A stretch of DNA of 62,080 bases, the filler included. It is 4 parts of 4 records of this genome, joined end to end, with 100 filler letters (N's around TTAATTAATTAA, not from the genome) between each part and the next. Parts side by side here need not be neighbours in the genome. Positions count along the whole stretch, not along the records: positions 21,057 to 37,468 come from SRR20825006_342; 3 more parts are not named here. One strand, 5' to 3'. Position numbers and translations under genes: made by a program. The notes under the pieces were generated by a model. That model saw only the letters and a program-made list of their open reading frames with translations. It ran no database searches and was not told the origin of the DNA. Shown here in pieces: positions 14,603-36,859 of this stretch; the stretch's first letter is position 1, and each line of letters opens with the position of its first letter.

Positions 14603-14629
14603 CTTTTTTAAGCAAGGGGAGCGAGAGAA

Positions 14630-20539: not shown

Positions 20540-20956
20540 ACGTAGCTTCGCCAAAGAGGTTGAAAAACTGCGCCTTGGCGATGGTGACATTTTTCGCGGC
20601 GAAGGCATTTTGGCGATCACCAAGGCGTTGCTGGAAAATGGTGTGGGCTATGTGGGCGGCTATCAAGGCGCCCCCATCAGCCATTTGATGGATGTGTTTG
20701 CCGACGCGGAAGATTTACTTAGCGAACTCGGCGTTCGTTTCGAAGCCAGTGCTTCGGAAGCCACCGCCGCTGCCATGCTTGCCGCGTCGGTGCATTATCC
20801 CATTCGCGGTGCGGTCACGTTTAAATCTACCGTCGGCACCAATGTGGCGTCGGACGCTTTGGCCAATCTCGCCTCTGGCGGGGTCACAGGCGGCGCGCTG
20901 ATCATTGTCGGCGAGGATTATGGCGAAGGCTCCTCCATCATGCAGGAGCGCAGCCA
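20532..20956 (+). CDS. Indolepyruvate ferredoxin oxidoreductase alpha-type subunit (5' part, cut by gap)
   Basis: MAERSFAKEV..GGYQGAPISHL..KSTVGTNVASDAL..GEDYGEGSSIMQERS. Confidence 0.8.
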
Positions 20957-21056
20957 NNNNNNNNNNNNNNNNNNNNNNNNNNNNNNNNNNNNNNNNNNNN
21001 TTAATTAATTAANNNNNNNNNNNNNNNNNNNNNNNNNNNNNNNNNNNNNNNNNNNN
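20957..21056. other. Artificial contig linker
   Basis: 100 bp of N runs around TTAATTAATTAA (stops in all frames). Confidence 0.98.
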
Positions 21057-21057
21057 C

Positions 21058-21867
21058 GCACTTGTCGACAGCCACTGCCATCTGGACTATCCCCAGTTTT
21101 CCGAAGACCTTCCGGGCACAATTGAACGTGCCCGGAATGCTGGTGTCGGTATGATGGTTAGTATCGGCGTCAAGCTTTCGACTTTCGAAAATGTTCGCGC
21201 CGTCGCTGCCAAAGCTGACCACATTTACTGCACGGTAGGTGTCCACCCGCACGAGGCGGGCGAGGAGGGGCTTTCATCACCTGATCGCCTGATCGAAATG
21301 GCATCCGATCCGAAGATTATCGGTATCGGCGAAAGCGGCCTTGATTATTATTACGATCATGCCCCCCGCGAAGCACAGCGCCAAAGCTTTCGCGCCCATA
21401 TTGCCGCATGTCGCGAAACCGGTCTGCCATTGATTGTCCACACACGTGACGCAGACGACGACACGATGGATATCCTTGAAGAGGAATATGAAAAGGGGCC
21501 GTTTACTGGTGTCATTCATTGCTTTTCAAGTTCGGCGACACTGGCGCAACGTGCCTTGAAGATTGGTTTTTATATCTCGTGCTCCGGGATTATTACCTTC
21601 AATTCCGCAAAAGAAATCCAGGCAGCGGTCGCTGATGTTCCGCTTGACCGTTTGCTTGTGGAAACCGATGCGCCATATCTGGCACCAGTCCCGAAGCGCG
21701 GTAAACCAAACGAACCAAGCTATGTCGCACATACAGCGGCAAAACTTGCTCAGATCAAGGGCGTTGATGTTCATGAAATAGCCCGGATAACCAGCGATAA
21801 TTTCTTCACACTATTCAAGAAAGCTGATCGCAAGAATCTTCTGTCCCCGGAGGCGGGCGAACAGTGA
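21058..21867 (+). CDS. tatD: TatD-family hydrolase (5' end cut by gap)
   Basis: Frame extends upstream of the listed ORF to LVDSHCHLD; GVHPHE, GESGLDY, VETDAPYLAP. Confidence 0.93.
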   Translation, partial: ALVDSHCHLDYPQFSEDLPGTIERARNAGVGMMVSIGVKLSTFENVRAVAAKADHIYCTVGVHPHEAGEEGLSSPDRLIEMASDPKIIGIGESGLDYYYDHAPREAQRQSFRAHIAACRETGLPLIVHTRDADDDTMDILEEEYEKGPFTGVIHCFSSSATLAQRALKIGFYISCSGIITFNSAKEIQAAVADVPLDRLLVETDAPYLAPVPKRGKPNEPSYVAHTAAKLAQIKGVDVHEIARITSDNFFTLFKKADRKNLLSPEAGEQ

Positions 21868-22637: not shown

Positions 22638-22671
22638 AGGTCGGAAAGGTTGTTCGTTCTCCTATATCACA

Positions 22672-22699
22672 AAGTTCTATAATATATATTAGCCGCAAA
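22672..22699 (-). other. dif-like XerC/XerD site, probable left prophage junction
   Basis: Minus strand TTTGCGGCTAA-TATATA-TTATAGAACTT: 11-6-11 layout with a XerD-like arm; lies between the last host gene and the first phage gene. Confidence 0.65.
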
Positions 22700-22785
22700 T
22701 CATGTGTTAATCCGTTGCTATCCTGTTCGCTACTCTAGGGTAGGGCGCAAAATCACGTAGGATATACACAAAGGTAGGATTGCGA

Positions 22786-23079
22786 TCAGGCCGCAATCCC
22801 GTCCATTGCTTTGTGAATATTGTCATGCATCTTAATATAATAAGTCTCGGCGTCCGTTCCTTTGGTGCGCCAGTAATTGAGGTCTAGTAAAGCCTCAAAT
22901 GGATCATTGCCGCCAAGCAAGGCTAACTTGATCATTATTTCATCACCGGGCAGGCCATGCCCGCGATGATAACGCGTCATGTTGATGCTATTGATGCCAA
23001 GTTCGCGGGCGACCGCATTGTTCGAATGCAGGTTTGAATGCCGTCTGGCGTCGTCAATGTAACCGCTGATTGATTTCAT
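22786..23079 (-). CDS. Prophage HTH repressor (resembles inovirus-type repressors)
   Basis: SNNAVARELGINSINMTRYHRG helix-turn-helix; divergent from the phage operon; GGAG RBS. Confidence 0.7.
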   Translation of the reverse strand: MKSISGYIDDARRHSNLHSNNAVARELGINSINMTRYHRGHGLPGDEIMIKLALLGGNDPFEALLDLNYWRTKGTDAETYYIKMHDNIHKAMDGIAA

Positions 23080-23128
23080 CGCTCATATCTCCGTTTCCCG
23101 CAAAGATTGTATCTCCAAAAAAACCCAT

Positions 23129-23188
23129 TTGACAACATACGGGGAGTTGTGGAGTTCTATTTGCAAGTTGCATAGTGATACTGTGCAA
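23129..23188. promoter_or_regulatory. Divergent promoter/operator region of the prophage
   Basis: TTGACA at 23129-23134; inverted repeat TTGCATAGT-GAT-ACTGTGCAA at 23168-23188. Confidence 0.45.
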
Positions 23189-23318
23189 TGTGCGATCCGT
23201 ACCCATAGGGGCACCCCGTTTCCCAAAGCTCGGTGCCCCGTCCGGTACAGAGGATCGCCGGACAAAGGGAAACGAAGATGACGCAATTAGAGCAAGATCA
23301 GGGCATTACGTCCGGGCC

Positions 23319-23528
23319 GTGCATATCCCCTTCAAAAAAAACCAGTTCGGCGCGTATGCGTTCTTTCCGGGCACTGGCCCAAAGGACAAGCGTTGCGCCG
23401 ACTGCATGTATTGCCGCGATCCCGAAAAGAAGCCGACCTGCAATATGGTTGCGGCCTTTCCGGGCCGGTACAAGTCGGGGCCGATAAAGTCGGGTTCGGC
23501 AAGCTGCAAGTATTTCCGGCAGCGATAG
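23319..23528 (+). CDS. Small Cys-rich (putative zinc-binding) phage protein; start uncertain
   Basis: FPGTGPKDKRCADCMYC..C..CKYF; in-frame GTG at 23319, or ATG 23278 via an A8 slip. Confidence 0.55.
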   Translation: MHIPFKKNQFGAYAFFPGTGPKDKRCADCMYCRDPEKKPTCNMVAAFPGRYKSGPIKSGSASCKYFRQR

Positions 23529-23703
23529 CAGTTTCGCCCGTGTGAGGCTGGGGAGCCAAAATTCACGGGGGTTTGGAAGGGGCTTCTGCCTCTCCACAAG
23601 TGGGGAAGGTGGTTTTTGTCAAAATTCTGCCTTCCCCTTCTAAACCTCAAGAAAACCCTCTGCGCGAAGCGCCAATTTCCACATTCCACGAGGATGACGA
23701 ACG

Positions 23704-24084
23704 ATGAACCAGCTTAAATTTTCCGATGATCGCAAGCATGCATCCGGGCAGTTCTCGACGCTGCATTTCGGCCTTGATATTGAAATTCATGCCATTGATG
23801 GCAATTGGGATAAAGGCAAGCCGCCAGTCGGCACCGGCAAAGAGCCGGGGCGTCCGGCCTATGATGTGTTCGGCGCTGGCCGGGGTGGCGCGGTCAAGCT
23901 GGGCGCGGCATGGCTCAAAACCATTCAGAACGGCCCGAACACAGGGAAGCAGTTCCTTACCATGTCACTTGATGATCCCAGCTTCCCATCAGCGTTGAAC
24001 CTGTCGGCGTTCGAAGGTGACGCGCCGGGTATCTATAATCTGAAATGGGAGCGCCCGCGTCAGGCGACCCAAGATGCCGCATAA
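23704..24084 (+). CDS. DUF736-family protein, putative ssDNA-binding
   Basis: GQFSTL..PAYDV..LGAAW..FLTMSLDDPSFP signature. Confidence 0.8.
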   Translation: MNQLKFSDDRKHASGQFSTLHFGLDIEIHAIDGNWDKGKPPVGTGKEPGRPAYDVFGAGRGGAVKLGAAWLKTIQNGPNTGKQFLTMSLDDPSFPSALNLSAFEGDAPGIYNLKWERPRQATQDAA

Positions 24085-24463
24085 GGGCAACGAGCAAGCC
24101 GGGGTTAACGCCCCGGCCTTTCGTATTCCAGACGGTTTTTCGCATGAGACAATGCCGATTTTTGGCGGTGCGTTCTCTCATGCGAAACACTGTTTCGTGG
24201 AATGGTCAGAAGATGGCGAGGAATACGCGGCTTTTCTGCCGACTGATCGCGCTTTCGACTGTCTGGCGGCATGTGAAGCCATGATGAAGGCTAAGAACCC
24301 GCCGATAGAGAGCGCGGAAATCTGGCCTATGTGCCGGTCTGTCACCAAAGGAAACCTTGACCGCCTTTGGAAGCAGGTGCGGCGGCTGCGTGAGCCGGGA
24401 AATCAGAAAACATGGTCAATCGAGTTTGCCCGGTTCGGGTATGGCGGAGGGTTTGAACGATAA
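24074..24463 (+). CDS. Phage hypothetical protein
   Basis: 129-aa ORF overlapping both neighbours. Confidence 0.5.
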   Translation: MPHKGNEQAGVNAPAFRIPDGFSHETMPIFGGAFSHAKHCFVEWSEDGEEYAAFLPTDRAFDCLAACEAMMKAKNPPIESAEIWPMCRSVTKGNLDRLWKQVRRLREPGNQKTWSIEFARFGYGGGFER

Positions 24464-24723
24464 TGGGTGGTTGTCTTTTTACAGGTCCGGCAGGAAGTCA
24501 AAACAGCGCGAAAATTGTTTACCCGTCCGCGTGGGTGCTTGTTGATATTGACTTGAAAACTGGCGATGTCGCCGGGGTTGTGGGGCCGTTTTTCTCTGAA
24601 TTTGAGGCGGATAATTTTGACCGGCAACGTGCTCAGGTGCGGTCCTTCCGTCGGACGCATAAGACGCGGATTTTTTCCGTGACATCACCATACGACGAAA
24701 TGCGGAAAGGATGCGAACGATGA
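24463..24723 (+). CDS. Phage hypothetical protein
   Basis: TAATG coupling to the upstream ORF, GGAGG RBS. Confidence 0.5.
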   Translation: MGGCLFTGPAGSQNSAKIVYPSAWVLVDIDLKTGDVAGVVGPFFSEFEADNFDRQRAQVRSFRRTHKTRIFSVTSPYDEMRKGCER

Positions 24724-24824
24724 GCGGCGTAACGATAATTGCCTTTTTCGTTGGTGTTGTGATCGGTGCGGCGGTTGTTGCTGCCGTGTTCGCGGGCATC
24801 ATTGATGGCTGGTTTAACAACTGA
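24720..24824 (+). CDS. 34-aa single-pass membrane protein (not in ORF track)
   Basis: MSGVTIIAFFVGVVIGAAVVAAVFAGIIDGWFNN*, ATGA overlap. Confidence 0.6.
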   Translation: MSGVTIIAFFVGVVIGAAVVAAVFAGIIDGWFNN

Positions 24825-24832
24825 GGTGAAAC

Positions 24833-25093
24833 ATGGGTAACGGAATGGATGCACTGAGCCGGGAAGAACGCGAAGAAATGCGCGGTAATCGCTTTCCTGA
24901 ATGTTGGTGCGTAATGGTTTCTCGGTCCAAAACCAGTTGGGGCTGGGGTGTTGTCGTTGTTTACGGGCCGGTTGCGCGGCAAGGCGCAGAGGCGCTTGAA
25001 AAGGTTTTGACTGGCGCGGGATTTTTGGCAGAAGCGGTCAAGATGTCAGGGCACACCGTTGATATTGCCGATTTGAGGAAACTGGTTGATTGA
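24833..25093 (+). CDS. Phage hypothetical protein
   Basis: GAGGTG RBS, 86 aa, in operon. Confidence 0.55.
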   Translation: MGNGMDALSREEREEMRGNRFPECWCVMVSRSKTSWGWGVVVVYGPVARQGAEALEKVLTGAGFLAEAVKMSGHTVDIADLRKLVD

Positions 25094-25098
25094 CGGGC

Positions 25099-25129
25099 GA
25101 AGGGGGCATTTTTGTATCACGCCCCCTTC
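25099..25129. other. Candidate rolling-circle double-strand origin hairpin
   Basis: Perfect 9-bp stem GAAGGGGGC/GCCCCCTTC with a 13-nt AT-rich loop, about 20 bp before the Rep start. Confidence 0.55.
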
Positions 25130-25148
25130 TGATTACAGGGTAGGGAAA

Positions 25149-26357
25149 ATGGATTTAATCTACGCAGGGTTTGACGGTCTTGATGTGACGTTTCAGGGAG
25201 TCATCCCGCTTCGGGCGGTTGATGCTTTCGAAGCGGCCAAGGTGGCAGCACAGGAAACCAAACAGGAAACCTTTGCACAGGTCGGCAAATTCAAGGGTCA
25301 TGTTGCCGAAACCGGGGCGCGTGGCGGCTATACGTATCGGGTTGATACCGGCAATCTTGGCTTTACGTGGTTCTTTTCCAAATCCCAGAAGCGCGAAGGC
25401 TGGAATATCCGGGTTTCCTGCAAGTCGGCAACCCTTGCGACATACGGCTTTGAGGGGGCCATAGGGCTTATGTATGCCGATCTTGAGGCCGTGGGGGCGA
25501 CGGTCCTGCAAGAGGCCATTGCAAGGGTCGATTTCGCGATGGATTGGCGCATGCCCGGTGATTTCCGGCTTGATCCGCACCGCTTCGCGCTCCATGGGAC
25601 AACCAAGGCCGACATGCACGGCGAGGAAATCGGGCAGCACTGGCAGAAACGTCAATGCACCGGCTTGACAATCGGTAAAATGCCGGGGCGGCAAATCTGC
25701 ATCTATGACAAGCGCCGCGATATCGTCGCCAAACGCAAAGACGAATGGTGGAAAATCTGGGGGATTGACCGGGACGAATTTGAGAGGTCCGGGGATCAGA
25801 TGTGGCGCATCGAATTGCGGGCCGGAAAGAAGCATTTAAAGGAACAATGGGGCGTTACGTCATGGGCCGATCTTCGCGCCAAATTGGGCGATATCTATGC
25901 GCATGCGCTCCTACGTATACGTTACAAGGCCCGGACATGGGATGAAGACGAAAATATCACCCGCATTGAGGACGATCATATGTGGGAACGCTGCCGGGCT
26001 GTAACGGGTGGAAGCCTGTTTGAGTACACGAGCAATTGCGGGCCGGGTGTCGTCAAACAGGTCATGCAGGAACAACAGCGCCAGACCATCGCCGCGATGA
26101 TGATCGGCTTGTCAGCAAACCTTGCAGTTCTGTCCGGGGTGGACAAAGACCAGCTATGGGAATTGCCGCCCCTGATTTCAAAAATGATTGCCAGCAACAT
26201 CCACGGGGAGGAAAGCGGAAAAGAGTTCAAATCGAAAATGAAGAAGGTCTATCGCCGATATGAAATCTATGACGAAGATGGAGTGATCCTAGATGAAAGA
26301 ACGATTGGACAAATTGGTGGCGGCACAGGAAGCTGCACAGAAAGCGCCTTTGTTTAA
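25149..26357 (+). CDS. Rolling-circle replication initiator, Rep_trans family
   Basis: GFDGLDVT, ARVDFAMD, TIGK..ICIYDK (catalytic Tyr candidate), WRIELR; AGGGA RBS before ATG 25149. Confidence 0.85.
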   Translation: MDLIYAGFDGLDVTFQGVIPLRAVDAFEAAKVAAQETKQETFAQVGKFKGHVAETGARGGYTYRVDTGNLGFTWFFSKSQKREGWNIRVSCKSATLATYGFEGAIGLMYADLEAVGATVLQEAIARVDFAMDWRMPGDFRLDPHRFALHGTTKADMHGEEIGQHWQKRQCTGLTIGKMPGRQICIYDKRRDIVAKRKDEWWKIWGIDRDEFERSGDQMWRIELRAGKKHLKEQWGVTSWADLRAKLGDIYAHALLRIRYKARTWDEDENITRIEDDHMWERCRAVTGGSLFEYTSNCGPGVVKQVMQEQQRQTIAAMMIGLSANLAVLSGVDKDQLWELPPLISKMIASNIHGEESGKEFKSKMKKVYRRYEIYDEDGVILDERTIGQIGGGTGSCTESAFV

Positions 26358-26454
26358 CAAGGCCCATCTGATCGACAAAGCATTAGTCGAATTGGGCGGG
26401 CTGTTGAACGAAATGGTCGAGCGGATCGAGCGGCTGGAAAATGGCAACCGTTGA
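26293..26454 (+). CDS. 53-aa coiled-coil protein (not in ORF track)
   Basis: MKERLDKLVAAQEAAQKAPLFNKAHLIDKALVELGGLLNEMVERIERLENGNR*, GGAG RBS, overlaps the Rep end. Confidence 0.6.
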   Translation: MKERLDKLVAAQEAAQKAPLFNKAHLIDKALVELGGLLNEMVERIERLENGNR

Positions 26455-26812
26455 TCCGGGCACTGTGATTGAAGTTCGCGCTTGTTCAGGGTGTGGGAAC
26501 CCGGTCTACGTCAAGGCGAACAAAAATCAGATTGCATATTACTTTTGCACACCTAACGACGACAACAACGGTCAAGGGTGTTCGCATCATGAAAAATGGG
26601 GACGGGTCGCATCAAACCAGAAATTGAGGGCGTATTGGGAAGCCAGACGCGCCCACGAGCGTAAGGGGGTTGATGATGACCGAAAAGACCGATTGGCTAC
26701 CGGGAGCCAGCCAGACGAAGCCGAAAGCCGGGCCGACGAAAGCCAGCCTGAACCAGTCCACGAGCCTCAACGGGCCATCCTCGCCGGATTTGCCGAATAC
26801 ATCCGATCATGA
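26441..26812 (+). CDS. Zinc-ribbon protein, possible transcription activator (PM2 P14-like position)
   Basis: CSGC..YFC..GCSH; directly after the Rep module. Confidence 0.55.
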   Translation: MATVDPGTVIEVRACSGCGNPVYVKANKNQIAYYFCTPNDDNNGQGCSHHEKWGRVASNQKLRAYWEARRAHERKGVDDDRKDRLATGSQPDEAESRADESQPEPVHEPQRAILAGFAEYIRS

Positions 26813-27317
26813 CGATATTGATGCGGGTGCTGAACATCTGGCGTCGTTCACGGTTGATCCGCTAGAAGGCGAGGCCGACGAATTTGGCGGGCTGGATGGC
26901 CTGTCAAATCTGGCCGATGACAGCGGCGAATTTATCAGTTCGGACGTGTTCTTTTCGTCCTTCTGTACCGCCTTCCAGATCGGCGCATGTGTGCCGCCAT
27001 ATCTGACCAGCCTCAAGATTGATGACAGCGAAATGGATCAGGCGCGCGCCGCGTCCGATGCGCTGTATGATATCTGTCTTGATACACCTTCCATGCATTT
27101 CCTTGTTAAGCCCGGTGGTGTGTGGTTTCAGCGCGTTGCCGCGATTTCGGCCTTTGCCTTGCCTAAGGCAATGGGGGTTGTTTCGGAAATCAAGGCGAAG
27201 AAGGCAAGGCCGGTCAATCAATCCCCTGGACAAGATAAAAAAGCCGAAAGGGCCAAGCCGGAACCAGCCAAAGAACCGCCTGCAAATGGTGGTCAATATG
27301 ACTGGGCTCCGACGTAA
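26673..27317 (+). CDS. Acidic protein preceding the packaging ATPase
   Basis: Acidic N-terminus, hydrophobic C-terminal helix, TAATG coupling to the ATPase. Confidence 0.6.
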   Translation: MMTEKTDWLPGASQTKPKAGPTKASLNQSTSLNGPSSPDLPNTSDHDDIDAGAEHLASFTVDPLEGEADEFGGLDGLSNLADDSGEFISSDVFFSSFCTAFQIGACVPPYLTSLKIDDSEMDQARAASDALYDICLDTPSMHFLVKPGGVWFQRVAAISAFALPKAMGVVSEIKAKKARPVNQSPGQDKKAERAKPEPAKEPPANGGQYDWAPT

Positions 27318-27958
27318 TGGCGGCGTTTTCAGAAGCGGGCCGGATTGGCATCTGGGGTCGATCCGGGTCCGGCAAATCGACGCGGGCAAAGCGTTTGATT
27401 GCGAAACGAAAGCGGGCCGTTGTCTTTGATCCTCAGGACGAATACCAGCACGAGCGCGGCTTTTTCCGGGTAACAACGATTGATCAGGTCCGGGCCTATA
27501 TGGCGCGAAACTGGCGGCGCAATTTCCGGGTGGCTTATGTGCCGCCAGCCGGGCAGGAAATGGCCGCGCTTGATCGGCTATCAAAGTTGTTGAAAGTCGC
27601 CCAACGGCCATTTTTCGACGGGCACGACGAACGGCAAATCTGTTTGCTGGTCGAGGAAATGAACGAATGTTTCCCCGTGACAGGGATACCACGCGCATTC
27701 GGTGGGTTTGGTGATCTCTGTTCGCGGGGGCGGCATTCGGGGATTGAATTGATCGGCGTTTCACAGCGAATTGCAGAAGTCAATACCCGGTTTCGAGGTA
27801 ATTGCACCGAAACTTATGTTTTCCGGCAAAAAGGGCCGCGTGATCTTAAGGCGGCAAGTGACGAGTTGGGCGGCGTGTCAACCGCAGAAATCCAAGCGTT
27901 ACAGCCGCACCATTACATTCACGAGAAAAACGGGACCATTACCAAAGGGAAAAACTGA
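27317..27958 (+). CDS. Genome packaging ATPase (FtsK-HerA/A32-like; PM2 P9-like)
   Basis: Walker A GRSGSGKS, Walker B LLVEE, arginine finger RGRHSGI followed by SQR..V..RGNC. Confidence 0.88.
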   Translation: MAAFSEAGRIGIWGRSGSGKSTRAKRLIAKRKRAVVFDPQDEYQHERGFFRVTTIDQVRAYMARNWRRNFRVAYVPPAGQEMAALDRLSKLLKVAQRPFFDGHDERQICLLVEEMNECFPVTGIPRAFGGFGDLCSRGRHSGIELIGVSQRIAEVNTRFRGNCTETYVFRQKGPRDLKAASDELGGVSTAEIQALQPHHYIHEKNGTITKGKN

Positions 27959-28028
27959 AAAATCGTGAATTTTCCTACGTAAGGTAATGTAACGTTACCT
28001 AGATTTGCCGCCCCCGAAATTGCGGCGT

Positions 28029-28061
28029 AACCCGGTTGTCAGACAGGCGACCGGGTTTTTT
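28029..28061 (+). terminator. Intrinsic terminator-like hairpin between ATPase and structural genes
   Basis: AACCCGGTTGTC-AGACA-GGCGACCGGGTT followed by a T-tract. Confidence 0.6.
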
Positions 28062-28098
28062 GTTTCCCCGGCTGTCACACAGGAAAAAGGGGTTTTCC

Positions 28099-28188
28099 GT
28101 GAGTGCAAAGAGTTTTGCAGTGGGCGTTGCTACCGCGCTGGTCGCGACGGTCATTTATGACAAATTCATCAAGCCGAACATGGCTTAG
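28099..28188 (+). CDS. 29-aa putative virion membrane protein (not in ORF track)
   Basis: MSAKSFAVGVATALVATVIYDKFIKPNMA*, AAGGGG RBS. Confidence 0.6.
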   Translation: MSAKSFAVGVATALVATVIYDKFIKPNMA

Positions 28189-28197
28189 GGGGTCAAT

Positions 28198-28320
28198 TTG
28201 AAGGGTGATATCAAAACGGTCGTTCTGACCGCGTTGGGCGTCATGGTTGCCGGTTACGTCATGAACATGATGTACGACGTGGCGATTGTGAAACAGGCCT
28301 CTGACGGCTTCGATAAGTAA
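28198..28320 (+). CDS. 40-aa putative virion membrane protein (not in ORF track)
   Basis: MKGDIKTVVLTALGVMVAGYVMNMMYDVAIVKQASDGFDK*, AGGGGG RBS; directly before the MCP, as for PM2 P7. Confidence 0.6.
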   Translation: MKGDIKTVVLTALGVMVAGYVMNMMYDVAIVKQASDGFDK

Positions 28321-28332
28321 GGGGGCGGCGCG

Positions 28333-29151
28333 TTGACCAATCGCATTTCCAAAAAAATGCCGAACGGCTCCGGTATCGGTGCGGGACAAACCGCAACGTT
28401 CAACCTGCCGAACGGCGTAACCTATCATCAGCTTTTGTTCCGCATTCAGGCCGATCTGGGCGCGGGCGTGGTTGATGTGCCGAAAGCCAGCCTTGGCACC
28501 GTGCTTGGTGAAATCCGGCTCTATATCGACGGGCAGGAAACCATTCGCATTGACGCTGCCGATCTGGCGGCAATTCTGACCTACAAGGGCCAGACAGTTA
28601 AGGACGGGGCGTTGCCGCTCATGTTCTCTGATCCGGCACAGCGCACCCCGATGGGTGAAGATGCGCCGGCTATCGGCACCGCCGATATTCAGTCACTTTC
28701 CCTTGAGGTTGATATCAAGGCAGGTGTTACGTCGCCGTCACTGGTCGTTTATGGCCTGCTGGGTCCAAACACACCGCTTGGTCAGTTCTACGCGATCAAG
28801 AAATATCCGTTCAACGTCGGTAATACCGGCATCCGCGAATTGCAGGATTTGCCGCGCTCTGACTATCACATCACGAAAATGCATATCAGCACGGATGATA
28901 TTGATAGCGTTCAGGTCGAGGCAAACCAGCGAATTTTGCGTGACTTTGACCGGGTTGTTGGTGCGGCGGCGGCAATTCAGACCGGCAAGGTCTGGCAGAC
29001 CGGCTGGACGCACATTGATTTCACGATCAGTGATCGTCTTTCCGACTTCCTGCCGATGCTGCTTGAAGATTTCCGGGTGCGTCTGGATATGACCGCTACA
29101 GGCAACTTCAACCTGTATACCGAGGAAATTCGCGGGCGCGTTGCCGCCTGA
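28333..29151 (+). CDS. Double jelly-roll major capsid protein (PM2 P2-like)
   Basis: 272 aa, beta-rich; AGQTATFNLPNGVTY, IGT..SLEVDI, ELQDLPRSDYHITKMHI and IDF..EDFRVRLD are colinear with PM2 P2 motifs as recalled. Confidence 0.88.
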   Translation: MTNRISKKMPNGSGIGAGQTATFNLPNGVTYHQLLFRIQADLGAGVVDVPKASLGTVLGEIRLYIDGQETIRIDAADLAAILTYKGQTVKDGALPLMFSDPAQRTPMGEDAPAIGTADIQSLSLEVDIKAGVTSPSLVVYGLLGPNTPLGQFYAIKKYPFNVGNTGIRELQDLPRSDYHITKMHISTDDIDSVQVEANQRILRDFDRVVGAAAAIQTGKVWQTGWTHIDFTISDRLSDFLPMLLEDFRVRLDMTATGNFNLYTEEIRGRVAA

Positions 29152-29206
29152 CAGGTGGATGTAAACCGGGGCGCTAGCGCGTCCCGGCTGGCCTTAAGGG
29201 GGTAAT

Positions 29207-29497
29207 ATGGCTGAAACGACGCAAAGTGCCGGTGGGCTGGAAATTCTTGACAGTATTTTTGGGTATCTGAACAAAACCAAGAATGCCGTTTTTGAAACCT
29301 ATTCCCAATGGCAAGCGACCTTTGGCAGCGAGAACGCCATGGATGGCGGGGGGGATTATGCAACGGGTGAAAATGCCGGTAGCTGGTCAAACCCAAATCC
29401 GTCACCGCCTGCAAGTGGCTCGGCAAATACCGGGCTCTATATCGGTGTCGGTGTGGCTTTGCTGGCCGGAATGATCGTTCTCACGCGCAAAAAATAG
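29207..29497 (+). CDS. Virion membrane protein (PM2 P3-like position)
   Basis: C-terminal TM GLYIGVGVALLAGMIVL followed by RKK; first gene after the MCP. Confidence 0.65.
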   Translation: MAETTQSAGGLEILDSIFGYLNKTKNAVFETYSQWQATFGSENAMDGGGDYATGENAGSWSNPNPSPPASGSANTGLYIGVGVALLAGMIVLTRKK

Positions 29498-29506
29498 GGG
29501 GCGCAT

Positions 29507-29752
29507 ATGTTTCCTGCGCTTTCTGGTCTTACCGGAATGATGGGCGGCGGGGGTGGCGGCGGTAGCTGGCTGGAAACGTCCAGCGAAGCAACTGCCATGT
29601 CCAACGCCCGCGCAACATCCGGGCAGATTTACAGCTACAACACTGCGCCGTTTATCGTCGGAGGTGACGATGACAACGCGGTTTCAATGATCAAGATGGC
29701 CGTTCCGTTTGTGGCCGCTGGGGTGATGGCATGGCTGGTATTGAAACGGTGA
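29507..29752 (+). CDS. Gly/Ser-rich virion membrane protein (PM2 P8-like)
   Basis: MFPALSGLTGMMGGGG..SSEAT.. with C-terminal TM and KR. Confidence 0.65.
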   Translation: MFPALSGLTGMMGGGGGGGSWLETSSEATAMSNARATSGQIYSYNTAPFIVGGDDDNAVSMIKMAVPFVAAGVMAWLVLKR

Positions 29753-30147
29753 CGTTGGGGGTTGTGGCGTGGGATGACACGGCGGCGGAACATTTCCGCC
29801 CCGTTGTCCTGCCAGACAGCCCAACCGGCCTTGAGGGGCTGCAAAACGACGTGGAAGCGGGGGCGGCTTCTGTGCTGGCCGTTATGGCCGATGGGGAGCG
29901 TATCGGGTCGGTTTTGGTCCGGCTTCTGGCGGGCGGGGATGGTCTGCATTTCGTGATTGAATGCGCCAATGCCGATCTGCCGGGGTTTGATCTGGTCGAA
30001 ACCTGCATGCCCGCCCTTGAGGGCTGGGCCGCAAAACTCGGATGTGTCGCGGTCGATGTACCAACGCATCGTCCCGGATTGGTTTTCAAGATGAAACGGC
30101 GCGATTACCAAGTGGTTCAAACCGTGATGCGAAAGGCGATTGCATGA
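29731..30147 (+). CDS. Hypothetical protein, possible GNAT-like fold
   Basis: DGERIGSVLV..ALEGWAAKLGCVAVDV..RPGL pattern. Confidence 0.5.
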   Translation: MAGIETVTLGVVAWDDTAAEHFRPVVLPDSPTGLEGLQNDVEAGAASVLAVMADGERIGSVLVRLLAGGDGLHFVIECANADLPGFDLVETCMPALEGWAAKLGCVAVDVPTHRPGLVFKMKRRDYQVVQTVMRKAIA

Positions 30148-30518
30148 GTTCCGCACTAAGCAATTCCAGTAGCAAAAGTAGCAGCACAACGACCAGCAAC
30201 AACTATGACCAGCGGGCAGGGGCCGAAGATGGTTCTATCGCGGTTTCGGGTGGTGGACAGGTCAATATCGACGCGACCACGCCAGAGGCTTGGGATTTTG
30301 CCGCCGATGTGAATGCAGACGCGCTTGATCTAGCGGCTATCACGGTCGGATCGGCCTTTAGCGCACTGGAAAAGTCCAATCAGACGGTTGGCACCGCACT
30401 TACGGAATTGCGCAAGGCGAATACGTCTGACACCGCAAACACGCTGGAAATGTTGATCAAGATCGGCGTTCCGGTGCTTGGCGCGGCCTTCATCCTTCCA
30501 GCGATCTTTAAGAAATAG
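30144..30518 (+). CDS. Ser/Thr-rich virion membrane protein
   Basis: ATGA-coupled start MSSALSNSSSKSSSTTTSNN; C-terminal TM and KK. Confidence 0.65.
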   Translation: MSSALSNSSSKSSSTTTSNNYDQRAGAEDGSIAVSGGGQVNIDATTPEAWDFAADVNADALDLAAITVGSAFSALEKSNQTVGTALTELRKANTSDTANTLEMLIKIGVPVLGAAFILPAIFKK

Positions 30519-30525
30519 GGGCAGC

Positions 30526-31233
30526 ATGGCCGATAGTTCATTTTTCCAAAGCTACAAAGGATCGGTTCAGCCGGGGGATTTGTTCACGATCCATCGCCGG
30601 GGCCGCTCCGTTGCCATGGTTGCTGCGTCCGATGATCTGGAAATCGTGATCAATGACGGGTCGCGTTCCCGGTTCTTTGCCGGTGCGTCCCTGAGCTTTG
30701 ATGTCGAGTTCGAGAAAATCCAGATTTTCAACCCGAACGCAACGGCGGCGACCTTCGAACTATGGACCGCCATGGGCCGGGTTGATGACAACCGCCTGAC
30801 CGCTTCGGGCGATCTGAATGTGATTGATCCGAACACGGGGGACAGCTTCGCCAACGTGATCGCCAAGAATGCCGAAATTCTGGCGATGATGCAGAGCGAC
30901 ACGGATCAAGGGCACCCGGTAAAGGTGTTAGGGGAGAATGCTGCAACGGCAGGTTTTATAGCGTCCTCTGTGGAAATCATAAGCCCATTGCTAAACACAA
31001 ACGGGGTGATTGTTCGTCATGCTTCGATTTTGACAGCGGCGTCTTATGCTGCTGGGCTTTTTTATGGGGCGTCTGCACCGGGAAGCATGGTTTCAAATCA
31101 TGCGTTAATACGAAGTTCGAACGCTGTGCCGGTCCATGATGGTCAGTTTTTGTTGTCTGCCGGTTTGGGGCTGTGGGCGTTATCCACTGTTGTGAATGGA
31201 TATTACACCGTTAGCTGGGATTATTTGCCATGA
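30526..31233 (+). CDS. Putative penton/spike receptor-binding protein
   Basis: Beta-rich N-terminal domain ending FEKIQIFNP..GRVDDNR, then a linker and a second beta-rich domain; AGGGG RBS. Confidence 0.6.
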   Translation: MADSSFFQSYKGSVQPGDLFTIHRRGRSVAMVAASDDLEIVINDGSRSRFFAGASLSFDVEFEKIQIFNPNATAATFELWTAMGRVDDNRLTASGDLNVIDPNTGDSFANVIAKNAEILAMMQSDTDQGHPVKVLGENAATAGFIASSVEIISPLLNTNGVIVRHASILTAASYAAGLFYGASAPGSMVSNHALIRSSNAVPVHDGQFLLSAGLGLWALSTVVNGYYTVSWDYLP

Positions 31234-31454
31234 GTGATATGGAAGTTTTAAGCCTTGCCTATCAGCGTCAGGCGCAGGGAGACACTCGTGATCTATCGGT
31301 TATCATAGCGGATATCCGGGCAGATCTTGCCACCATGCAATCGCCCGCGCCGGGGCCAACGGATGAAATCGGTTTCAAGTCCGAAGTGATCAAGGGTGTT
31401 CGCACTGAATACAAGATCATGGGTGATGGCTCTATGGTCGAGGTGACGTCATGA
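31230..31454 (+). CDS. Phage hypothetical protein
   Basis: ATGA overlaps at both ends. Confidence 0.55.
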   Translation: MSDMEVLSLAYQRQAQGDTRDLSVIIADIRADLATMQSPAPGPTDEIGFKSEVIKGVRTEYKIMGDGSMVEVTS

Positions 31455-31954
31455 TGAAAGATGCACTCCTTCTGGTCGGGGCTGGTGGGCTTGCTTTTGC
31501 AGCGTTTCAGGTTGCCAAGGGCAAATCGGTCACAACGATCGATCTGACCAATGCCGGACAAATCAGTCAGGAAGTCGACACCATCGCCCGGACGATCTGG
31601 GGCGAGGCGCGGGGCGAGGGTGAACGCGGCATGCATGCCGTTGCCAACGTCATTATGAACCGTGCGCGGGTTGGCGGATGGTGGGGCAATAGCCCGGTGG
31701 AAGTCTGCCTGAAGCCTGCTCAGTTCTCCGCTTGGAACCGCAATGATCCGAATTTTGACCTTGCCCGCAAGGTGACTACGCAGGACCCGCAGTTCCGTCT
31801 GGCCTTGCAGATTGCTGGCAGGGCGATTGCGGGCACCCTGGACGATATCACCGGGGGTGCAACGCACTATTTCAATCCGAATGTGGTCTTGCCGTCTTGG
31901 GCCAGTGCGCTAACGCGCCTTACCGATATCGGCAACCATCGCTTTTACGTTTAG
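31451..31954 (+). CDS. Cell wall hydrolase (SleB/Hydrolase_2) with N-terminal TM
   Basis: ARTIWGEARGE, AVANVIMNR, QFSAWN, GATHYFNP, IGNHRFY. Confidence 0.9.
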   Translation: MMKDALLLVGAGGLAFAAFQVAKGKSVTTIDLTNAGQISQEVDTIARTIWGEARGEGERGMHAVANVIMNRARVGGWWGNSPVEVCLKPAQFSAWNRNDPNFDLARKVTTQDPQFRLALQIAGRAIAGTLDDITGGATHYFNPNVVLPSWASALTRLTDIGNHRFYV

Positions 31955-31961
31955 GTGACGC

Positions 31962-32240
31962 ATGGCGACCTTCGAACCGCATTACGATAGCGCATTGCAT
32001 TCCGTGGAATACATGGACGGGCGCTGGATGACGTGCGGTGTGCTGGATCAGCATGCATGCATGAATTTGGCGCTTGATGCGGCGACAATTGAAGGTGAAG
32101 GCGATCCGGTGGGCGATCCGTTCGAAGATGATACCGGGTTGGTAATTGGTATGCCCCTTGAATACGAAACGATTGATTGGGGCGTGATTGCGCTCATGTG
32201 CGGCGCGGTGCTGTTCATGGCGGCTTTGGAAAGGGGGTAA
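31962..32240 (+). CDS. Acidic protein with C-terminal TM
   Basis: AGGTG RBS; WGVIALMCGAVLFMAAL. Confidence 0.55.
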   Translation: MATFEPHYDSALHSVEYMDGRWMTCGVLDQHACMNLALDAATIEGEGDPVGDPFEDDTGLVIGMPLEYETIDWGVIALMCGAVLFMAALERG

Positions 32241-32296
32241 TCGTGCGTCTGGGCTTGCGATTGCAGATGATCAACAAACAGGAGGGTGATGACGAC

Positions 32297-32389
32297 ATGG
32301 CAAAAGGTAAAAAAGCCAATGGTCGGCTGAAAAAGGGCTATCGCTACGCCAAGGGCGGGCGCGTGGTCAAAGCGAAAGGCCGTAAGTAA
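32297..32389 (+). CDS. 30-aa highly basic protein, putative DNA-binding
   Basis: MAKGKKANGRLKKGYRYAKGGRVVKAKGRK*; GGAGG upstream; TAATG coupling to the next gene. Confidence 0.65.
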   Translation: MAKGKKANGRLKKGYRYAKGGRVVKAKGRK

Positions 32390-32538
32390 TGCCGTTGCCG
32401 CTGATTTATTTTGGCGTCGGCGTGCTGTTTGGCGGCGGGGGCGTCTGGCTTGCCGGGGATGCTGCCAAAAAGGTCGGCAATGCCGCCCTGATCGTCGGCG
32501 GCGTCTATCTCGGCGGCAAATACCTGAAAGCGTGGTGA
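32389..32538 (+). CDS. 49-aa membrane protein with two hydrophobic segments (not in ORF track)
   Basis: MPLPLIYFGVGVLFGGGGVWLAGDAAKKVGNAALIVGGVYLGGKYLKAW*. Confidence 0.6.
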   Translation: MPLPLIYFGVGVLFGGGGVWLAGDAAKKVGNAALIVGGVYLGGKYLKAW

Positions 32539-32609
32539 ATGGCTGATATCACGCTATGGCAGGTTCTATCCGGGGGCGGCGATCTGGCGACAATCGGTTT
32601 TCTGTACTT
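32539..32609 (+). pseudogene. Small hydrophobic phage ORF interrupted by the transposon end
   Basis: MADITLWQVLSGGGDLATIGFLY then runs into the GAGGGTCGGC repeat. Confidence 0.5.
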
Positions 32610-32656
32610 GAGGGTCGGCAACGATTCTGACGCAATCCTCCAAAATTTGCCTTAAC
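32610..32656. repeat. Terminal inverted repeat of Tn3-family element (TnXax1-like GAGGG end); inner limit approximate
   Basis: GAGGGTCGGCAACGATTC.. just downstream of the tnpA stop. Confidence 0.75.
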
Positions 32657-32665
32657 CTATTGTAT

Positions 32666-35638: not shown

Positions 35639-35863
35639 ACGCAGTTCTTCGCTATGGGGTTCCAGTGAAAGGCATTAGCCCACAGTACTTTCGCTCTTGA
35701 GGGGGGCATTGCTTATAGTAGGCAGCAATTCGTCAAGACCAAAGGAACCGCCCGTTATTTTGTGAACGCCACGCTCGCTTTACGTTACGGGATTATTCGG
35801 TCATCGATCGCCGGTTCCCCGATTTATTGAATCGTTACACCACACCGCAGACTGATTCGAGCT

Positions 35864-36170
35864 ATGGCCATTGAGCATCTTTCCCCCCCCACTGATCATT
35901 CACACCTACCAACGCCTTTCTAGTGCCCAGCTAATCGCTCTGGCAGGGACCGGGCTAACGACGGTGGCGCTGGCGCCGCTGGCCCATGACTGACGGGCGG
36001 CAGTGCGGGCCAGGTGCTCGGCATTGCGCTGGCCCTGAAGATGATTGCCTACGCCCTAATAGCACCTCTGTTTGGGGCTGTTGCCCAAAAACTTCCCCGC
36101 CGTACTCTGCTGGTCACACTGGACATTCTGAGGGCCTGCGGGGTTGCCCTTTGTCACTGAGGTTTGGCAG
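35864..36170 (+). pseudogene. Frameshifted 5' fragment of NreB-like MFS (nickel resistance) transporter
   Basis: Across frameshifts: [56 protein letters not shown]. Confidence 0.7.
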
Positions 36171-36618
36171 GGGGCCCACTCTGGCTAGGGTAGGTACAAA
36201 ATTTTCGCCCAACCCCTTCATGTAATGACGCAATTAAGGGGCACGAGATATTGCCCTCTTGGGCGCAGCACCGATCAACCATGGCGCTCAGTAAAACCTC
36301 AATTTGCTGTAGCTTTTCGATCTTCCCACGTACGTCGTGCAACTTGCGCTCCGCGAGAGTGCTGGCTTCCTGGCAGTGGGTGCCGTCTTCGAGTCGGAGC
36401 AGGTCGCTGACCTCATCGAGACTGAAGCCTAACTGCTGCGATGTTTTCACAAAGCTCAACCTGCCGATATCGCTGGGACCGTAGCGTCGAATACCCCCGA
36501 GAGGACGCTGGGGCTCAGGTATTAACCCACGTCGCTGGTAGTAGCGGATGGTCTCAACTGAGACGTTCGCCGCCTTAGCCAGCCCCCCGATGGTCAATGA
36601 GTTCATTTCATCCGGCAT
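36154..36618 (-). CDS. merR: Hg(II)-responsive regulator MerR
   Basis: [32 protein letters not shown] (three Hg-binding Cys). Confidence 0.93.
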
Positions 36619-36623
36619 TTGCC

Positions 36624-36654
36624 TTGACTCCGTAGTTGACTACGGCCTCAAGCT
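36624..36654 (+). promoter_or_regulatory. mer operator/promoter
   Basis: TTGACT, a 19-bp spacer containing dyad CCGTAG-TTGA-CTACGG, then CAAGCT at the -10 position. Confidence 0.85.
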
Positions 36655-36691
36655 TAACCTATCGAACAAGGCCGTAGAAGGTGTAATTGCA

Positions 36692-36840
36692 ATATCAGAG
36701 TTGAATTCCGAGTCACAATCCGGTCGCGAGTCGTTAATCGCAGGCGGGGTTGCAGCCTGCTCGCGTCGGCCTGCTGTCTGGGCACCTTGGCCCTGATCGC
36801 CCTGGGGGGTTCCGGTGCCTGGATCGGCAACCTGGCGAAG
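36692..36840 (+). pseudogene. merT: merT remnant (ATA at start position, frameshift, truncated)
   Basis: GRESLIAGGVAA / LASACCLGTLALIALGGSGAWIGNL. Confidence 0.85.
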
Positions 36841-36859
36841 TCTGCGAGGTACCGCAAGT

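What the first reader, a model, noticed from the sequence alone, without database searches (positions are those of the whole stretch)
22672..32609. Apparently integrase-less, dif-anchored tailless (PM2-like double-jelly-roll) prophage in an alphaproteobacterial-type chromosome
Seen: a ~10 kb operon after tatD/MBL hydrolase encoding repressor, Rep, Walker ATPase, a 272-aa beta-rich protein, many tiny TM proteins, a spike-like protein and a muralytic enzyme. No terminase, portal, tail or integrase is present. Known: this gene order, ATPase type and MCP size match corticovirus PM2, which has an internal membrane. Inference: a temperate DJR virus that joins a corticovirus virion module to a CTXphi-like strategy (host XerCD integration, Rep_trans rolling circle). 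Comparable dif-integrating tailless prophages are, to my recollection, described mainly from Vibrio, so this may be an undescribed lineage. Tail-centred prophage tools would probably miss it.
Basis: partly seen in the sequence, partly recalled or inferred. Interest (0 to 1): 0.92.

Follow-up and report, generated by a model that had tools for sequence, protein, structure and literature searches.

The report
Tailless PM2-like prophage at Thalassospira dif
A small tailless, membrane-type virus genome sits exactly in the chromosome-dimer resolution site of a marine Thalassospira bacterium, has no integrase of its own, and has been split by a mercury-resistance transposon; this kind of element is already known from Vibrio and Rhodobacter.

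Summary
Window 22674-32609 holds about 9.9 kb of a 10.8-kb PM2-like (Vinavirales) prophage. It encodes a P2-type double-jelly-roll capsid protein, a packaging ATPase, C-terminally anchored small membrane proteins, a two-barrel virion protein, a SleB-type hydrolase and a Rep_trans-fold replication initiator. No integrase is present.

The left junction lies inside the Thalassospira chromosomal dif site. That 26-mer occurs in 37 of 37 Thalassospira genomes. In a complete chromosome it sits where GC skew and GGGNAGGG polarity flip. Homology to the closest prophage-free relative stops inside the site. Two complete relatives are flanked by dif-like sites and carry no tyrosine recombinase.

The right end is cut at 32610 by a Tn3-family mercury transposon of about 13.8 kb. 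In public contigs the last 0.89 kb of the prophage and a perfect dif lie beyond it.

- The window is a concatenation of unrelated contigs; only 21057-37468 is Thalassospira.
- The lineage is not undescribed in kind. dif-type DJR prophages (Vibrio), Jorvik (Rhodobacter) and an alphaproteobacterial Vinavirales clade with SleB hydrolase and Rep_trans are published.
- This copy is probably no longer packageable.

Verdict: a new member of a known kind, of moderate interest.

The parts
20957..21056 (.). Contig-joining linker (N44-TTAATTAATTAA-N44). Sequence to its left is an unrelated contig.
21057..21867 (+). tatD-family hydrolase gene, 5' end cut by the contig start. Host flank.
   Evidence: Pfam TatD_DNase 1.8e-76; 97% aa identity to L027
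21864..22637 (+). MBL-fold hydrolase gene. Host flank, directly upstream of dif in 17 of 30 Thalassospira dif loci.
   Evidence: Pfam Lactamase_B_2 1.9e-35
22674..22700 (+). attL, a hybrid dif site: host arm GTTCTATAA plus central TATATA, then a degenerate phage arm. Homology to the empty site of the closest relative ends at 22691.
22786..23079 (-). 97-aa HTH repressor-like terminal gene, divergently oriented.
   Evidence: phrog_638 2.4e-10 and phrog_4441 1.5e-07; 78% identical in L007
23704..24084 (+). DUF736 early protein.
   Evidence: Pfam DUF736 8.6e-12
25149..26357 (+). Rolling-circle replication initiator with the Rep_trans fold (402 aa from the ATG at 25149; the ORF is open from 25086).
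   Evidence: 15 of 34 homologues hit Pfam Rep_trans; the model's top 6 PDB matches are 4cij/4cwc/4cwe
26441..26812 (+). Zinc-ribbon protein with an acidic tail; function unknown.
   Evidence: Zn_ribbon_recom 3.8e-04, below the Pfam cut-off; conserved in relatives
27317..27958 (+). Packaging ATPase of FtsK/HerA type, in the P9 position.
   Evidence: phrog_2666 6.6e-24; Pfam DUF87 9.1e-06; 32.5% identity to the NO16 ATPase
28036..28188 (+). [quoted passage not shown]
   Evidence: gene order described in a PMC1950889 passage
28333..29151 (+). [quoted passage not shown]
   Evidence: Pfam P2_N and P2_C; PDB 9t9v and 2vvf; phrog_8536
29207..30518 (+). Four ORFs (96, 81, 138 and 124 aa). Three have a C-terminal TM anchor: putative virion membrane proteins.
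   Evidence: conserved in L001, L006 and L007; no family hits
30526..31233 (+). 235-aa virion protein with two beta-barrel domains joined by a helix. Probably a vertex or spike protein; its C-terminal part varies between elements.
   Evidence: model pLDDT 91; best viral fold matches are autolykivirus proteins at 1.1e-09 and 2.0e-08
31451..31954 (+). SleB-type cell-wall hydrolase with an N-terminal TM or signal anchor.
   Evidence: Pfam Hydrolase_2 2.4e-22
31962..32538 (+). Small ORFs (92, 30 and 49 aa). Two have a TM segment; one is Lys/Arg-rich.
32539..32609 (+). 5' part of a small ORF (42 aa in L001), cut by the transposon.
   Evidence: compared with L001 7739-7868; transposon homology starts at 32610
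32610..37468 (.). One end of a Tn3-family mercury transposon, about 13.8 kb in all: 36-nt terminal repeat 32610-32645, transposase 32666-35638 (-), merR 36154-36618 (-), and an ISL3 transposase fragment 36815-37282. It runs to the contig end.
   Evidence: Pfam; 98.1% identity to a Marinobacter salarius plasmid; second inverted repeat 13.8 kb away in public contigs

Best explanation
This is a prophage of a small tailless, internal-membrane dsDNA phage (order Vinavirales, PM2-like) in a Thalassospira chromosome. It has no recombinase. Its attP copies one arm and the central region of the host dif site, so the host XerC/XerD recombinases insert the roughly 10.8-kb circle into dif. This gives a degenerate hybrid site next to the repressor gene (window 22674-22700) and a regenerated perfect dif next to a second HTH gene at the far end. 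After excision it would replicate by rolling circle from a Rep_trans-fold initiator. A P9-like ATPase would package it into a P2-type double-jelly-roll capsid lined with small membrane proteins, and a SleB-type hydrolase would help release it. In this strain a 13.8-kb Tn3-family mercury transposon has landed in a small ORF 0.89 kb from the right end. The two dif-like sites now bracket about 24.7 kb, and the copy is probably no longer packageable. Shown: gene identities, position in dif, absence of an integrase, and the transposon. Inferred: Xer catalysis, rolling-circle replication, virion formation and loss of packageability.
For: Capsid: Pfam P2_N 4.3e-20 and P2_C 6.2e-21; PDB 9t9v 3.2e-16 over residues 4-264 and PM2 P2 at 2e-06. 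ATPase: phrog_2666 6.6e-24. Rep: 15 of 34 homologues hit Rep_trans, best 4.2e-09; the model (pLDDT 88.7) has Rep_trans initiators 4cij, 4cwc and 4cwe as its top 6 PDB matches, from 2.1e-09. dif: the 26-mer is present in 37 of 37 Thalassospira genomes, as a single copy in 33, and the reversed control gives 0. In a complete 4.55-Mb chromosome, GC skew is positive in 9 of 10 20-kb bins to the left and negative in 10 of 10 to the right; GGGNAGGG counts are 42 forward/1 reverse on the left and 1/41 on the right. Empty sites: window 21174-22691 matches the closest relative at 94.4% and the match stops inside dif. The same holds for G020 against G016. Complete relatives L006 and L007 are flanked by dif-like sites 10.7-10.9 kb apart. 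No PF00589 hit lies inside them, and none lies on the G012 replicon that carries one. XerD scores above the NCBIfam cut-off in 5 of 5 Thalassospira genomes, each with a second paralogue. Public contigs from 4 of 4 runs laid show a second copy of the dif left half continuing as a perfect dif. In a 79-kb contig it lies 0.89 kb beyond the transposon's other inverted repeat.
Against: No whole genome is held for the window, so XerC/XerD and dif uniqueness were shown only in relatives. No excised circle, attP junction or particle was observed; the runs laid were contigs, which cannot show them. The window's own Rep gives no Pfam hit. tblastn did not find PM2 or Jorvik capsids even at E<=10; the nearest isolated phages are Vibrio phages at 24-28% identity. 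The terminal HTH protein shows no DUF3653/XafT signal. The transposon means this copy may be inert.
Confidence: 0.85

Rival explanations
1. Insertion and excision are carried out by an element-encoded function, not by host XerCD. Candidates are the Rep_trans nickase or the terminal HTH protein, and the dif-like ends would only be target mimicry.
For: The terminal HTH gene is always next to the regenerated dif. Its nearest language-model look-alikes are resolvase-type HTH domains, but scores are only 0.77-0.81, a lead at best. Xer dependence was not tested.
Against: The HTH proteins are 149-187 aa with no catalytic domain found. Breakpoints fall within the 26-bp dif, with the central region identical at both junctions (TATATA, or TAAAGA in L007). 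That is the signature of tyrosine-recombinase exchange at dif. XerD and a paralogue are present in 5 of 5 relatives.
Confidence: 0.06
2. The Thalassospira elements are cryptic or domesticated Xer-mobilised islands that no longer make virions. The capsid genes would be relics or serve another role.
For: No particle, plaque or circular form was seen here. Only 3 of 37 Thalassospira genomes carry it. The window copy is interrupted by a transposon.
Against: 16 to 21 of the window's 23 ORFs have homologues in each of three other elements that are only 65-70% identical in DNA, with no frameshifts in the capsid, ATPase or Rep genes. This fits purifying selection on a whole virion module. MCP or Rep homologues also lie on metagenomic contigs of 10.2-10.75 kb, about genome size.
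Confidence: 0.12
3. The prophage-dif-transposon arrangement is an assembly chimera of a metagenome contig.
For: The window is stitched from unrelated contigs, and the contig ends in a repeated ISL3 element.
Against: Contigs from four runs of four studies, two of them labelled as organism A and about 5 Mb in size (probably isolate genomes; an inference), cover 21057-36922 or more without a difference. One 79-kb contig spans the whole contig. These runs may include the source. The same junction type recurs in independent genomes.
Confidence: 0.02

Closest known systems
dif-type double-jelly-roll prophages of Vibrio (NO16-like and PM2-like; PMC9966536, PMC12715192; passages read)
   Same: About 10-kb tailless DJR prophage with no integrase, integrated at chromosomal dif. 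attP mimics the full site or only the left or right arm. One junction regenerates dif. The terminal genes are a repressor and a second regulator.
   Different: The host is an alphaproteobacterium. Only the ATPase and MCP are detectably similar to NO16 (32.5% and 24.5% identity). The replicase has the Rep_trans fold and the hydrolase is SleB-type. The terminal HTH protein has no detectable XafT/P15 (DUF3653) similarity.
Rhodobacter phage Jorvik and Jorvik-like prophages (PMC10589892; passages read)
   Same: Alphaproteobacterial host, circular membrane-containing Vinavirales phage of about 9 kb, no integrase, dif-like attP/attB, and XerCD proposed.
   Different: Jorvik integrates inside the RuBisCO operon and its attB location is described as variable. 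Here the target is the terminus dif itself. The Jorvik replicase is a 212-aa P1 RepL-like protein; here it is a 402-aa Rep_trans-fold protein. tblastn found no Jorvik capsid match at E<=10; I did not check whether Jorvik is in that collection.
Vinavirales 'clade A' (proposed Mestraviridae) of Alphaproteobacteria (PMC9502842; passages read)
   Same: Alphaproteobacterial prophages with no cultured member, a SleB-superfamily hydrolase in place of PM2 P5, and Rep_trans among the replicases.
   Different: That paper states that the integration mechanisms of these prophages 'remain unclear'. Here the junctions are resolved to dif. Placement of this MCP in clade A was not tested by phylogeny, and the supplements could not be read.
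Pseudoalteromonas phage PM2 (Corticoviridae; PMC1950889 passages)
   Same: P2-type DJR capsid, a P9-position ATPase, a small gene between them, a late operon of small membrane proteins, divergent early regulators and rolling-circle replication.
   Different: PM2 is described as virulent. Its Rep (P12) and lysis genes are of other types. Capsid similarity is remote (phmmer 2e-06 to 2vvf).
CTXphi, VGJphi and TLCphi filamentous IMEXs of Vibrio cholerae (search listing; details recalled)
   Same: They use host XerCD at dif and replicate by rolling circle. That RstA belongs to Rep_trans is recalled, not tested here.
   Different: They are ssDNA filamentous virions without a capsid module. Which strand-exchange pathway the Thalassospira element uses is unknown.

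Membership tests
Vinavirales / PM2-like DJR phages | [quoted passage not shown] | tested here: met
   Pfam P2_N 72.2 bits and P2_C 75 bits (cut-off 25 each). Full-length alignment to solved DJR capsids 9t9v and 2vvf. The MCP itself was not folded here.
Vinavirales / PM2-like DJR phages | FtsK/HerA-type packaging ATPase next to the MCP, with a short gene between | tested here: met
   phrog_2666 6.6e-24, DUF87 26.4 bits (cut-off 23.2) and the NO16 ATPase. Order is 27317-27958 / 28036-28188 / 28333-29151.
Vinavirales / PM2-like DJR phages | Circular genome of about 9-12 kb | tested here: inconclusive
   att-to-att distance is 10.7-10.9 kb in L006 and L007 and about 10.8 kb here without the transposon. 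No circular form was observed.
Vinavirales / PM2-like DJR phages | Internal lipid membrane and tailless virion | not testable with these tools
   The only evidence is predicted single-TM small proteins in the late operon.
IMEX (integrative mobile elements exploiting Xer) | No recombinase of its own | tested here: met
   No recombinase family in the window ORFs. No PF00589 hit inside the complete relatives or within the fetched 19-20-kb loci (about 9-10 kb either side of the MCP) of 5 of 5 distant relatives. Only 0.89 kb lies beyond the transposon. Serine recombinase and DDE families were not searched genome-wide.
IMEX (integrative mobile elements exploiting Xer) | Integrated in the host dif site and flanked by dif-like repeats | tested here: met
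   the site is dif; breakpoints inside dif; both junctions.
IMEX (integrative mobile elements exploiting Xer) | Integration depends on XerC/XerD | not testable with these tools
   XerD (above cut-off) and a paralogue are present in 5 of 5 relatives. The window's own genome is not held.
Rep_trans rolling-circle initiators (PF02486) | Sequence match to the family model | tested here: inconclusive
   The window protein has no hit at E<=0.1. The L001 homologue scores 0.0054, below the cut-off. 15 of 34 aligned homologues hit, best 4.2e-09.
Rep_trans rolling-circle initiators (PF02486) | Rep_trans fold | tested here: met
   Foldseek top 6 are 4cij, 4cwc and 4cwe at E 2.1e-09 to 2.9e-07, probability 1.0, target-normalised TM 0.45-0.54.
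Rep_trans rolling-circle initiators (PF02486) | Catalytic tyrosine and a nick site at the origin | not tested
   An invariant Tyr (Y186 of the 402-aa form) exists in the alignment. It was not mapped onto the active site, and no origin was sought.
Vinavirales clade A ('Mestraviridae', PMC9502842) | Alphaproteobacterial host and a SleB-type hydrolase replacing P5 | tested here: met
   paper passage.
Vinavirales clade A ('Mestraviridae', PMC9502842) | MCP falls within clade A in a phylogeny | not tested
   The clade's sequences are in supplements that could not be opened.
Jorvik-like phages | Jorvik-type short replicase and regulatory set | tested here: not met
   The replicase here is a 402-aa Rep_trans-fold protein. 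Jorvik Gp2 is 212 aa and P1 RepL-like (paper passage).
XafT-type Xer activation factor (DUF3653), for the terminal HTH protein of intact relatives | DUF3653 domain | tested here: not met
   Only generic HTH_23/HTH_28 hits below the cut-off. Atlas look-alikes score below 0.9. Only 4 homologue clusters exist, none with a Pfam domain.

The most novel reading that the evidence does not exclude
Thalassospira Vinavirales prophages carry an exchangeable lysogeny cassette: repressor, a 149-187 aa HTH protein, and a one-armed attP. The cassette decides which arm of dif is mimicked and hence the orientation of insertion. The HTH protein, always next to the regenerated dif and unrelated in sequence to XafT, would be a new type of Xer activation or directionality factor that lets a dsDNA phage enter and leave dif without FtsK. 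The dif-bracketed 24.7-kb prophage::Tn composite would then be a Xer-mobilisable mercury-resistance island.
Probability: 0.15. Interest if true: 0.65.

Novelty: new member of a known kind. Interest (0 to 1): 0.4.

Why it matters
It extends 'dif-type' tailless prophages from Vibrio to a marine alphaproteobacterial genus. The evidence for the target is unusually clean: a conserved single-copy site at the skew and KOPS switch, plus two empty-site comparisons. It gives a concrete answer for a group whose integration mechanism a 2022 survey called unclear. It shows left-armed and right-armed attP variants within one genus. It also documents a transposon turning such a prophage into a larger dif-flanked block. 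Practically, it is a reminder that prophage finders centred on tails and integrases, and readers of stitched metagenome windows, can misjudge such loci.

Tried and rejected
- The window's own genome is not held, so GC skew and dif uniqueness were tested in relatives.
- GC skew within the window was rejected as evidence because the window is a concatenation of contigs.
- A second dif-like site, the second transposon repeat and the missing right-end genes were sought in the window and not found. They lie off the contig.
- G001's tatD-MBL locus has no dif downstream. In G020 three other genes lie between MBL and dif, and G001's MBL gene is likewise followed by another gene, so G001 gave no empty-site comparison.
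- Rep against the PDB by sequence and by profile gave only chance hits. Rep against phage records gave no match.
- The 235-aa protein against the PDB gave nothing by sequence. By fold it gave only bicupins with TM 0.14-0.26, uninformative beyond 'two beta-barrels'.
- The ATPase against the PDB gave weak HerA hits only, E 0.16-0.34.
- Rfam on the contig gave no match.
- The terminal HTH as an XafT homologue is not supported.
- My first reading, that the L006 HTH is unrelated to that of L001, was wrong. They are 25% identical, pairwise E 5e-08.
- RNA-labelled runs hold parts of the stretch.

Full report
WHAT THE WINDOW IS. The window contains three runs of N44-TTAATTAATTAA-N44, at 20957-21056, 37469-37568 and 50183-50282. 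These are six-frame-stop linkers between contigs. The finding lies on a 16,412-nt contig, 21057-37468. The host part of this contig is 94.4% identical over 1,518 nt to a Thalassospira genome. The neighbouring contigs (1000-20900 and 37569-50182) give only short conserved matches to two Thalassospira genomes, and the second has 60-65% G+C against about 54% for the finding's contig. Nothing outside 21057-37468 can therefore be used as chromosomal context. No whole genome is held for the window.

OBSERVATION.
- tatD and an MBL-fold hydrolase form the host flank.
- A divergently oriented 97-aa HTH repressor follows (phrog_638 2.4e-10).
- Early genes include a DUF736 protein.
- A 402-aa Rep, a zinc-ribbon protein and a Walker ATPase come next.
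- A 50-aa TM ORF precedes the 272-aa capsid protein.
- Four small ORFs follow, three with a C-terminal TM anchor.
- A 235-aa beta-rich protein and a SleB-type hydrolase (Hydrolase_2 2.4e-22) come after them.
- More small ORFs follow, two with a TM segment.
- No terminase, portal, tail or integrase family was hit.

The stated ends, 22672 and 32609, are right to within two bases.

VIRION MODULE. The 272-aa protein matches Pfam P2_N (4.3e-20) and P2_C (6.2e-21), both far above the cut-off. It aligns over residues 4-264 with a solved 'double jelly roll capsid protein' (9t9v, 3.2e-16) and over 17-257 with PM2 P2 (2vvf/2w0c, 2e-06).

The ATPase matches phrog_2666 (6.6e-24), HerA/DUF87 (26.4 bits against a cut-off of 23.2) and the NO16 ATPase (32.5% identity). 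The order ATPase, short TM gene, MCP is the conserved corticoviral core described in PMC1950889 (passage).

The 235-aa protein has 104 homologues at E<=0.001 among 1.84 billion representatives. It models with confidence (pLDDT 91) as two beta-barrels joined by a helix. Its best viral fold matches are uncharacterised proteins of two autolykiviruses, at 1.1e-09 and 2.0e-08. PDB matches are only generic bicupins. Calling it a vertex or spike protein is an inference. Its C-terminal quarter does not align between the Thalassospira elements.

REPLICATION. The Rep protein has 119 homologues, and those that are named come from Alphaproteobacteria. The window's copy has no Pfam hit, but 15 of 34 aligned homologues hit Rep_trans (best 4.2e-09) and 2 hit Phage_CRI. 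The AlphaFold model (pLDDT 88.7) has the Rep_trans initiators 4cij and 4cwc/4cwe as its six best PDB matches, with E from 2.1e-09 to 2.9e-07 and probability 1.0. TATA-binding-protein folds follow. Rolling-circle replication is therefore well supported as an inference. No origin was sought.

THE SITE IS THE CHROMOSOMAL dif.
- The 26-mer GTTCTATAATATATATTATGACAAAT occurs, with up to 3 mismatches, in 37 of 37 Thalassospira genomes.
- It occurs once in 33 of them and two or three times in 4. The reversed control pattern occurs in none.
- In a complete 4.55-Mb chromosome, GC skew is positive in 9 of 10 20-kb bins to the left of the site and negative in 10 of 10 to the right.
- In the same chromosome, GGGNAGGG is 42 forward and 1 reverse on the left, and 1 forward and 41 reverse on the right.
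- tatD-MBL lies directly upstream of the site in 17 of 30 dif loci fetched, as in the window.
- XerD scores above the NCBIfam cut-off, with a second paralogue, in 5 of 5 genomes tested.

Naming the TTATGACAAAT arm the XerD arm rests on recalled similarity to other dif sites.

JUNCTIONS. Homology between the window and the closest relative (MBL hydrolase 97.7% identical in protein) stops at 22691, after GTTCTATAATATATATTA. The relative continues with the second dif arm and then MarR-family regulator and acetyltransferase-like genes (the latter read by eye, not scanned against a family library). The window continues with a degenerate arm and the repressor gene.

MCP homologues of 78-81% identity occur in 3 of 37 Thalassospira genomes.
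- In G020 (L006), the element lies between a perfect dif and a site with a degenerate first arm. An empty dif between the same two flanking genes exists in G016.
- In G012 (L007), the element lies on a second replicon. Both of its junction sites share the central TAAAGA.
- In G001 (L001), the right junction is a perfect dif, and the left junction is lost at a contig end.

In all cases the degenerate junction is next to the repressor gene, and the perfect dif is next to a 149-187 aa HTH gene. Relative to dif, the G020 element is inverted and mimics the other arm. Its repressor is 35% and its HTH protein 25% identical to the others. This is one case only.

No PF00589 recombinase lies within the complete elements, and none lies anywhere on the G012 replicon that carries one.

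THE RIGHT END AND THE TRANSPOSON. From 32610 the contig is 98.1% identical to a Marinobacter salarius plasmid segment annotated as a Tn3-family transposase and a Hg(II)-responsive merR. The insertion cuts a small ORF that is 42 aa long in L001. The missing genes are not elsewhere in the window.

All sampled words of 22650-32640 are held by 13 runs of 7 studies. Ten rows are flagged as possible sources, so these are not independent. I laid contigs from four of the runs, with these results:
- All four give a second copy of 22671-22691 that continues as a perfect dif.
- In three of the four runs (X1, X4, X5) a contig also holds the transposon's terminal 36 nt in inverted orientation; in X9 only a loose end at 32645 points to it.
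- In a 79-kb contig that spans the whole stretch, the inverted repeat lies 13.8 kb from 32610, and the perfect dif lies 0.89 kb beyond it.

The prophage is therefore complete apart from the insertion, at about 10.8 kb of phage DNA. No room for an integrase remains. The two directly repeated dif-like sites now bracket about 24.7 kb. That this exceeds the capsid's capacity is an inference.

BEYOND THALASSOSPIRA. The MCP query found matches at E<=1e-05 in 8 of 401 sampled alphaproteobacterial genomes, G001 included. I fetched five of the seven others. All five show the same module order. All five have a dif-like ATAA-N6-TTAT palindrome near the expected right end, and a partial second copy was found in two. 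None has a PF00589 hit within the fetched 19-20-kb locus, about 9-10 kb either side of the MCP. The loose pattern is expected by chance about once per locus, and I did not show that these sites are the chromosomal dif.

WHAT IS KNOWN.
- PMC1950889 described PM2-like prophages and mentioned XerC/D only by analogy with CTXphi.
- PMC9502842 defined an uncultured alphaproteobacterial clade of Vinavirales, with SleB hydrolase and Rep_trans among the replicases. It wrote that the integration mechanisms 'remain unclear'.
- PMC9966536 (NO16) and PMC12715192 described dif-type DJR prophages in Vibrio. The latter covers full, left-armed and right-armed attP and terminal repressor/regulator gene pairs.
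- PMC10589892 (Jorvik) reported an integrase-less alphaproteobacterial Vinavirales phage with dif-like attP/attB, proposed XerCD, and counted 849 P9/P2 prophages in Alpha-, Beta- and Gammaproteobacteria.
- NCBI names a 93%-identical homologue 'major capsid protein P2'.
- My searches found no paper linking Thalassospira with such prophages. Supplementary lists could not be read and may contain them.

For all these papers I read passages found by term, not the whole text.

VERDICT. The novelty claim is not: this is a new member of a known kind. Three details are new:
- The target is the bona fide terminus dif in an alphaproteobacterium.
- Left-armed and right-armed attP variants occur within one genus.
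- A mercury transposon has been inserted into the prophage.

Excision, Xer dependence and particle formation remain untested.

Noticed in passing
window 20957-21056, 37469-37568, 50183-50282: The window is stitched from at least four contigs with N44-TTAATTAATTAA-N44 linkers. The contigs beside the finding are not Thalassospira-like, and 37569-50182 has 60-65% G+C.
   Followed up: yes
window 32610-37468: A Tn3-family mercury transposon, 98.1% identical to a Marinobacter salarius plasmid segment, itself interrupted by an ISL3 element. It is about 13.8 kb long in public contigs. This suggests recent transfer between marine Gamma- and Alphaproteobacteria.
   Followed up: partly
G012:C1/C2, G013, G022, G032, G037: The four genomes with a second or third dif-like site (4.9-5.8 Mb) have them on other contigs, several with the central TATATC. 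G032 (5.2 Mb) has a single site, which also has that centre. In G012 the prophage sits at a site with central TAAAGA on a 908-kb contig that has no tyrosine recombinase. These may be dif sites of second replicons.
   Followed up: no
L038-L057 (G005:C1, 400 kb around dif): GGGCAGGG is almost perfectly strand-polarised towards dif: 33 forward and 0 reverse on the left, 1 forward and 35 reverse on the right. This is a KOPS-like motif for Thalassospira.
   Followed up: partly
L006 337-5997 and L002: In G020, three genes (318, 1063 and 450 aa, - strand) lie between the MBL hydrolase and dif; in G001 another - strand gene follows the MBL hydrolase. Neither block is present in the window or in G021. 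I did not annotate them.
   Followed up: no
L066-L070: Five distant alphaproteobacterial relatives (MCP 26-33% identical) share the Rep, ATPase, MCP and 75-aa ORF order. Each has a dif-like palindrome at the expected end and no tyrosine recombinase within the fetched 19-20-kb locus.
   Followed up: partly
proteins P0120, P0123, P0136, P0138, P0003: MCP and Rep homologues lie on metagenomic contigs of 10.2-10.75 kb, about the size of the whole element. These may be complete or circular genomes. Not checked.
   Followed up: no
window 30526-31233 vs L001/L006/L007: The two-barrel virion protein aligns only over its first 185-190 residues (about 46% identity). The C-terminal part differs between elements, as expected for a host-recognition domain.
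   Followed up: no
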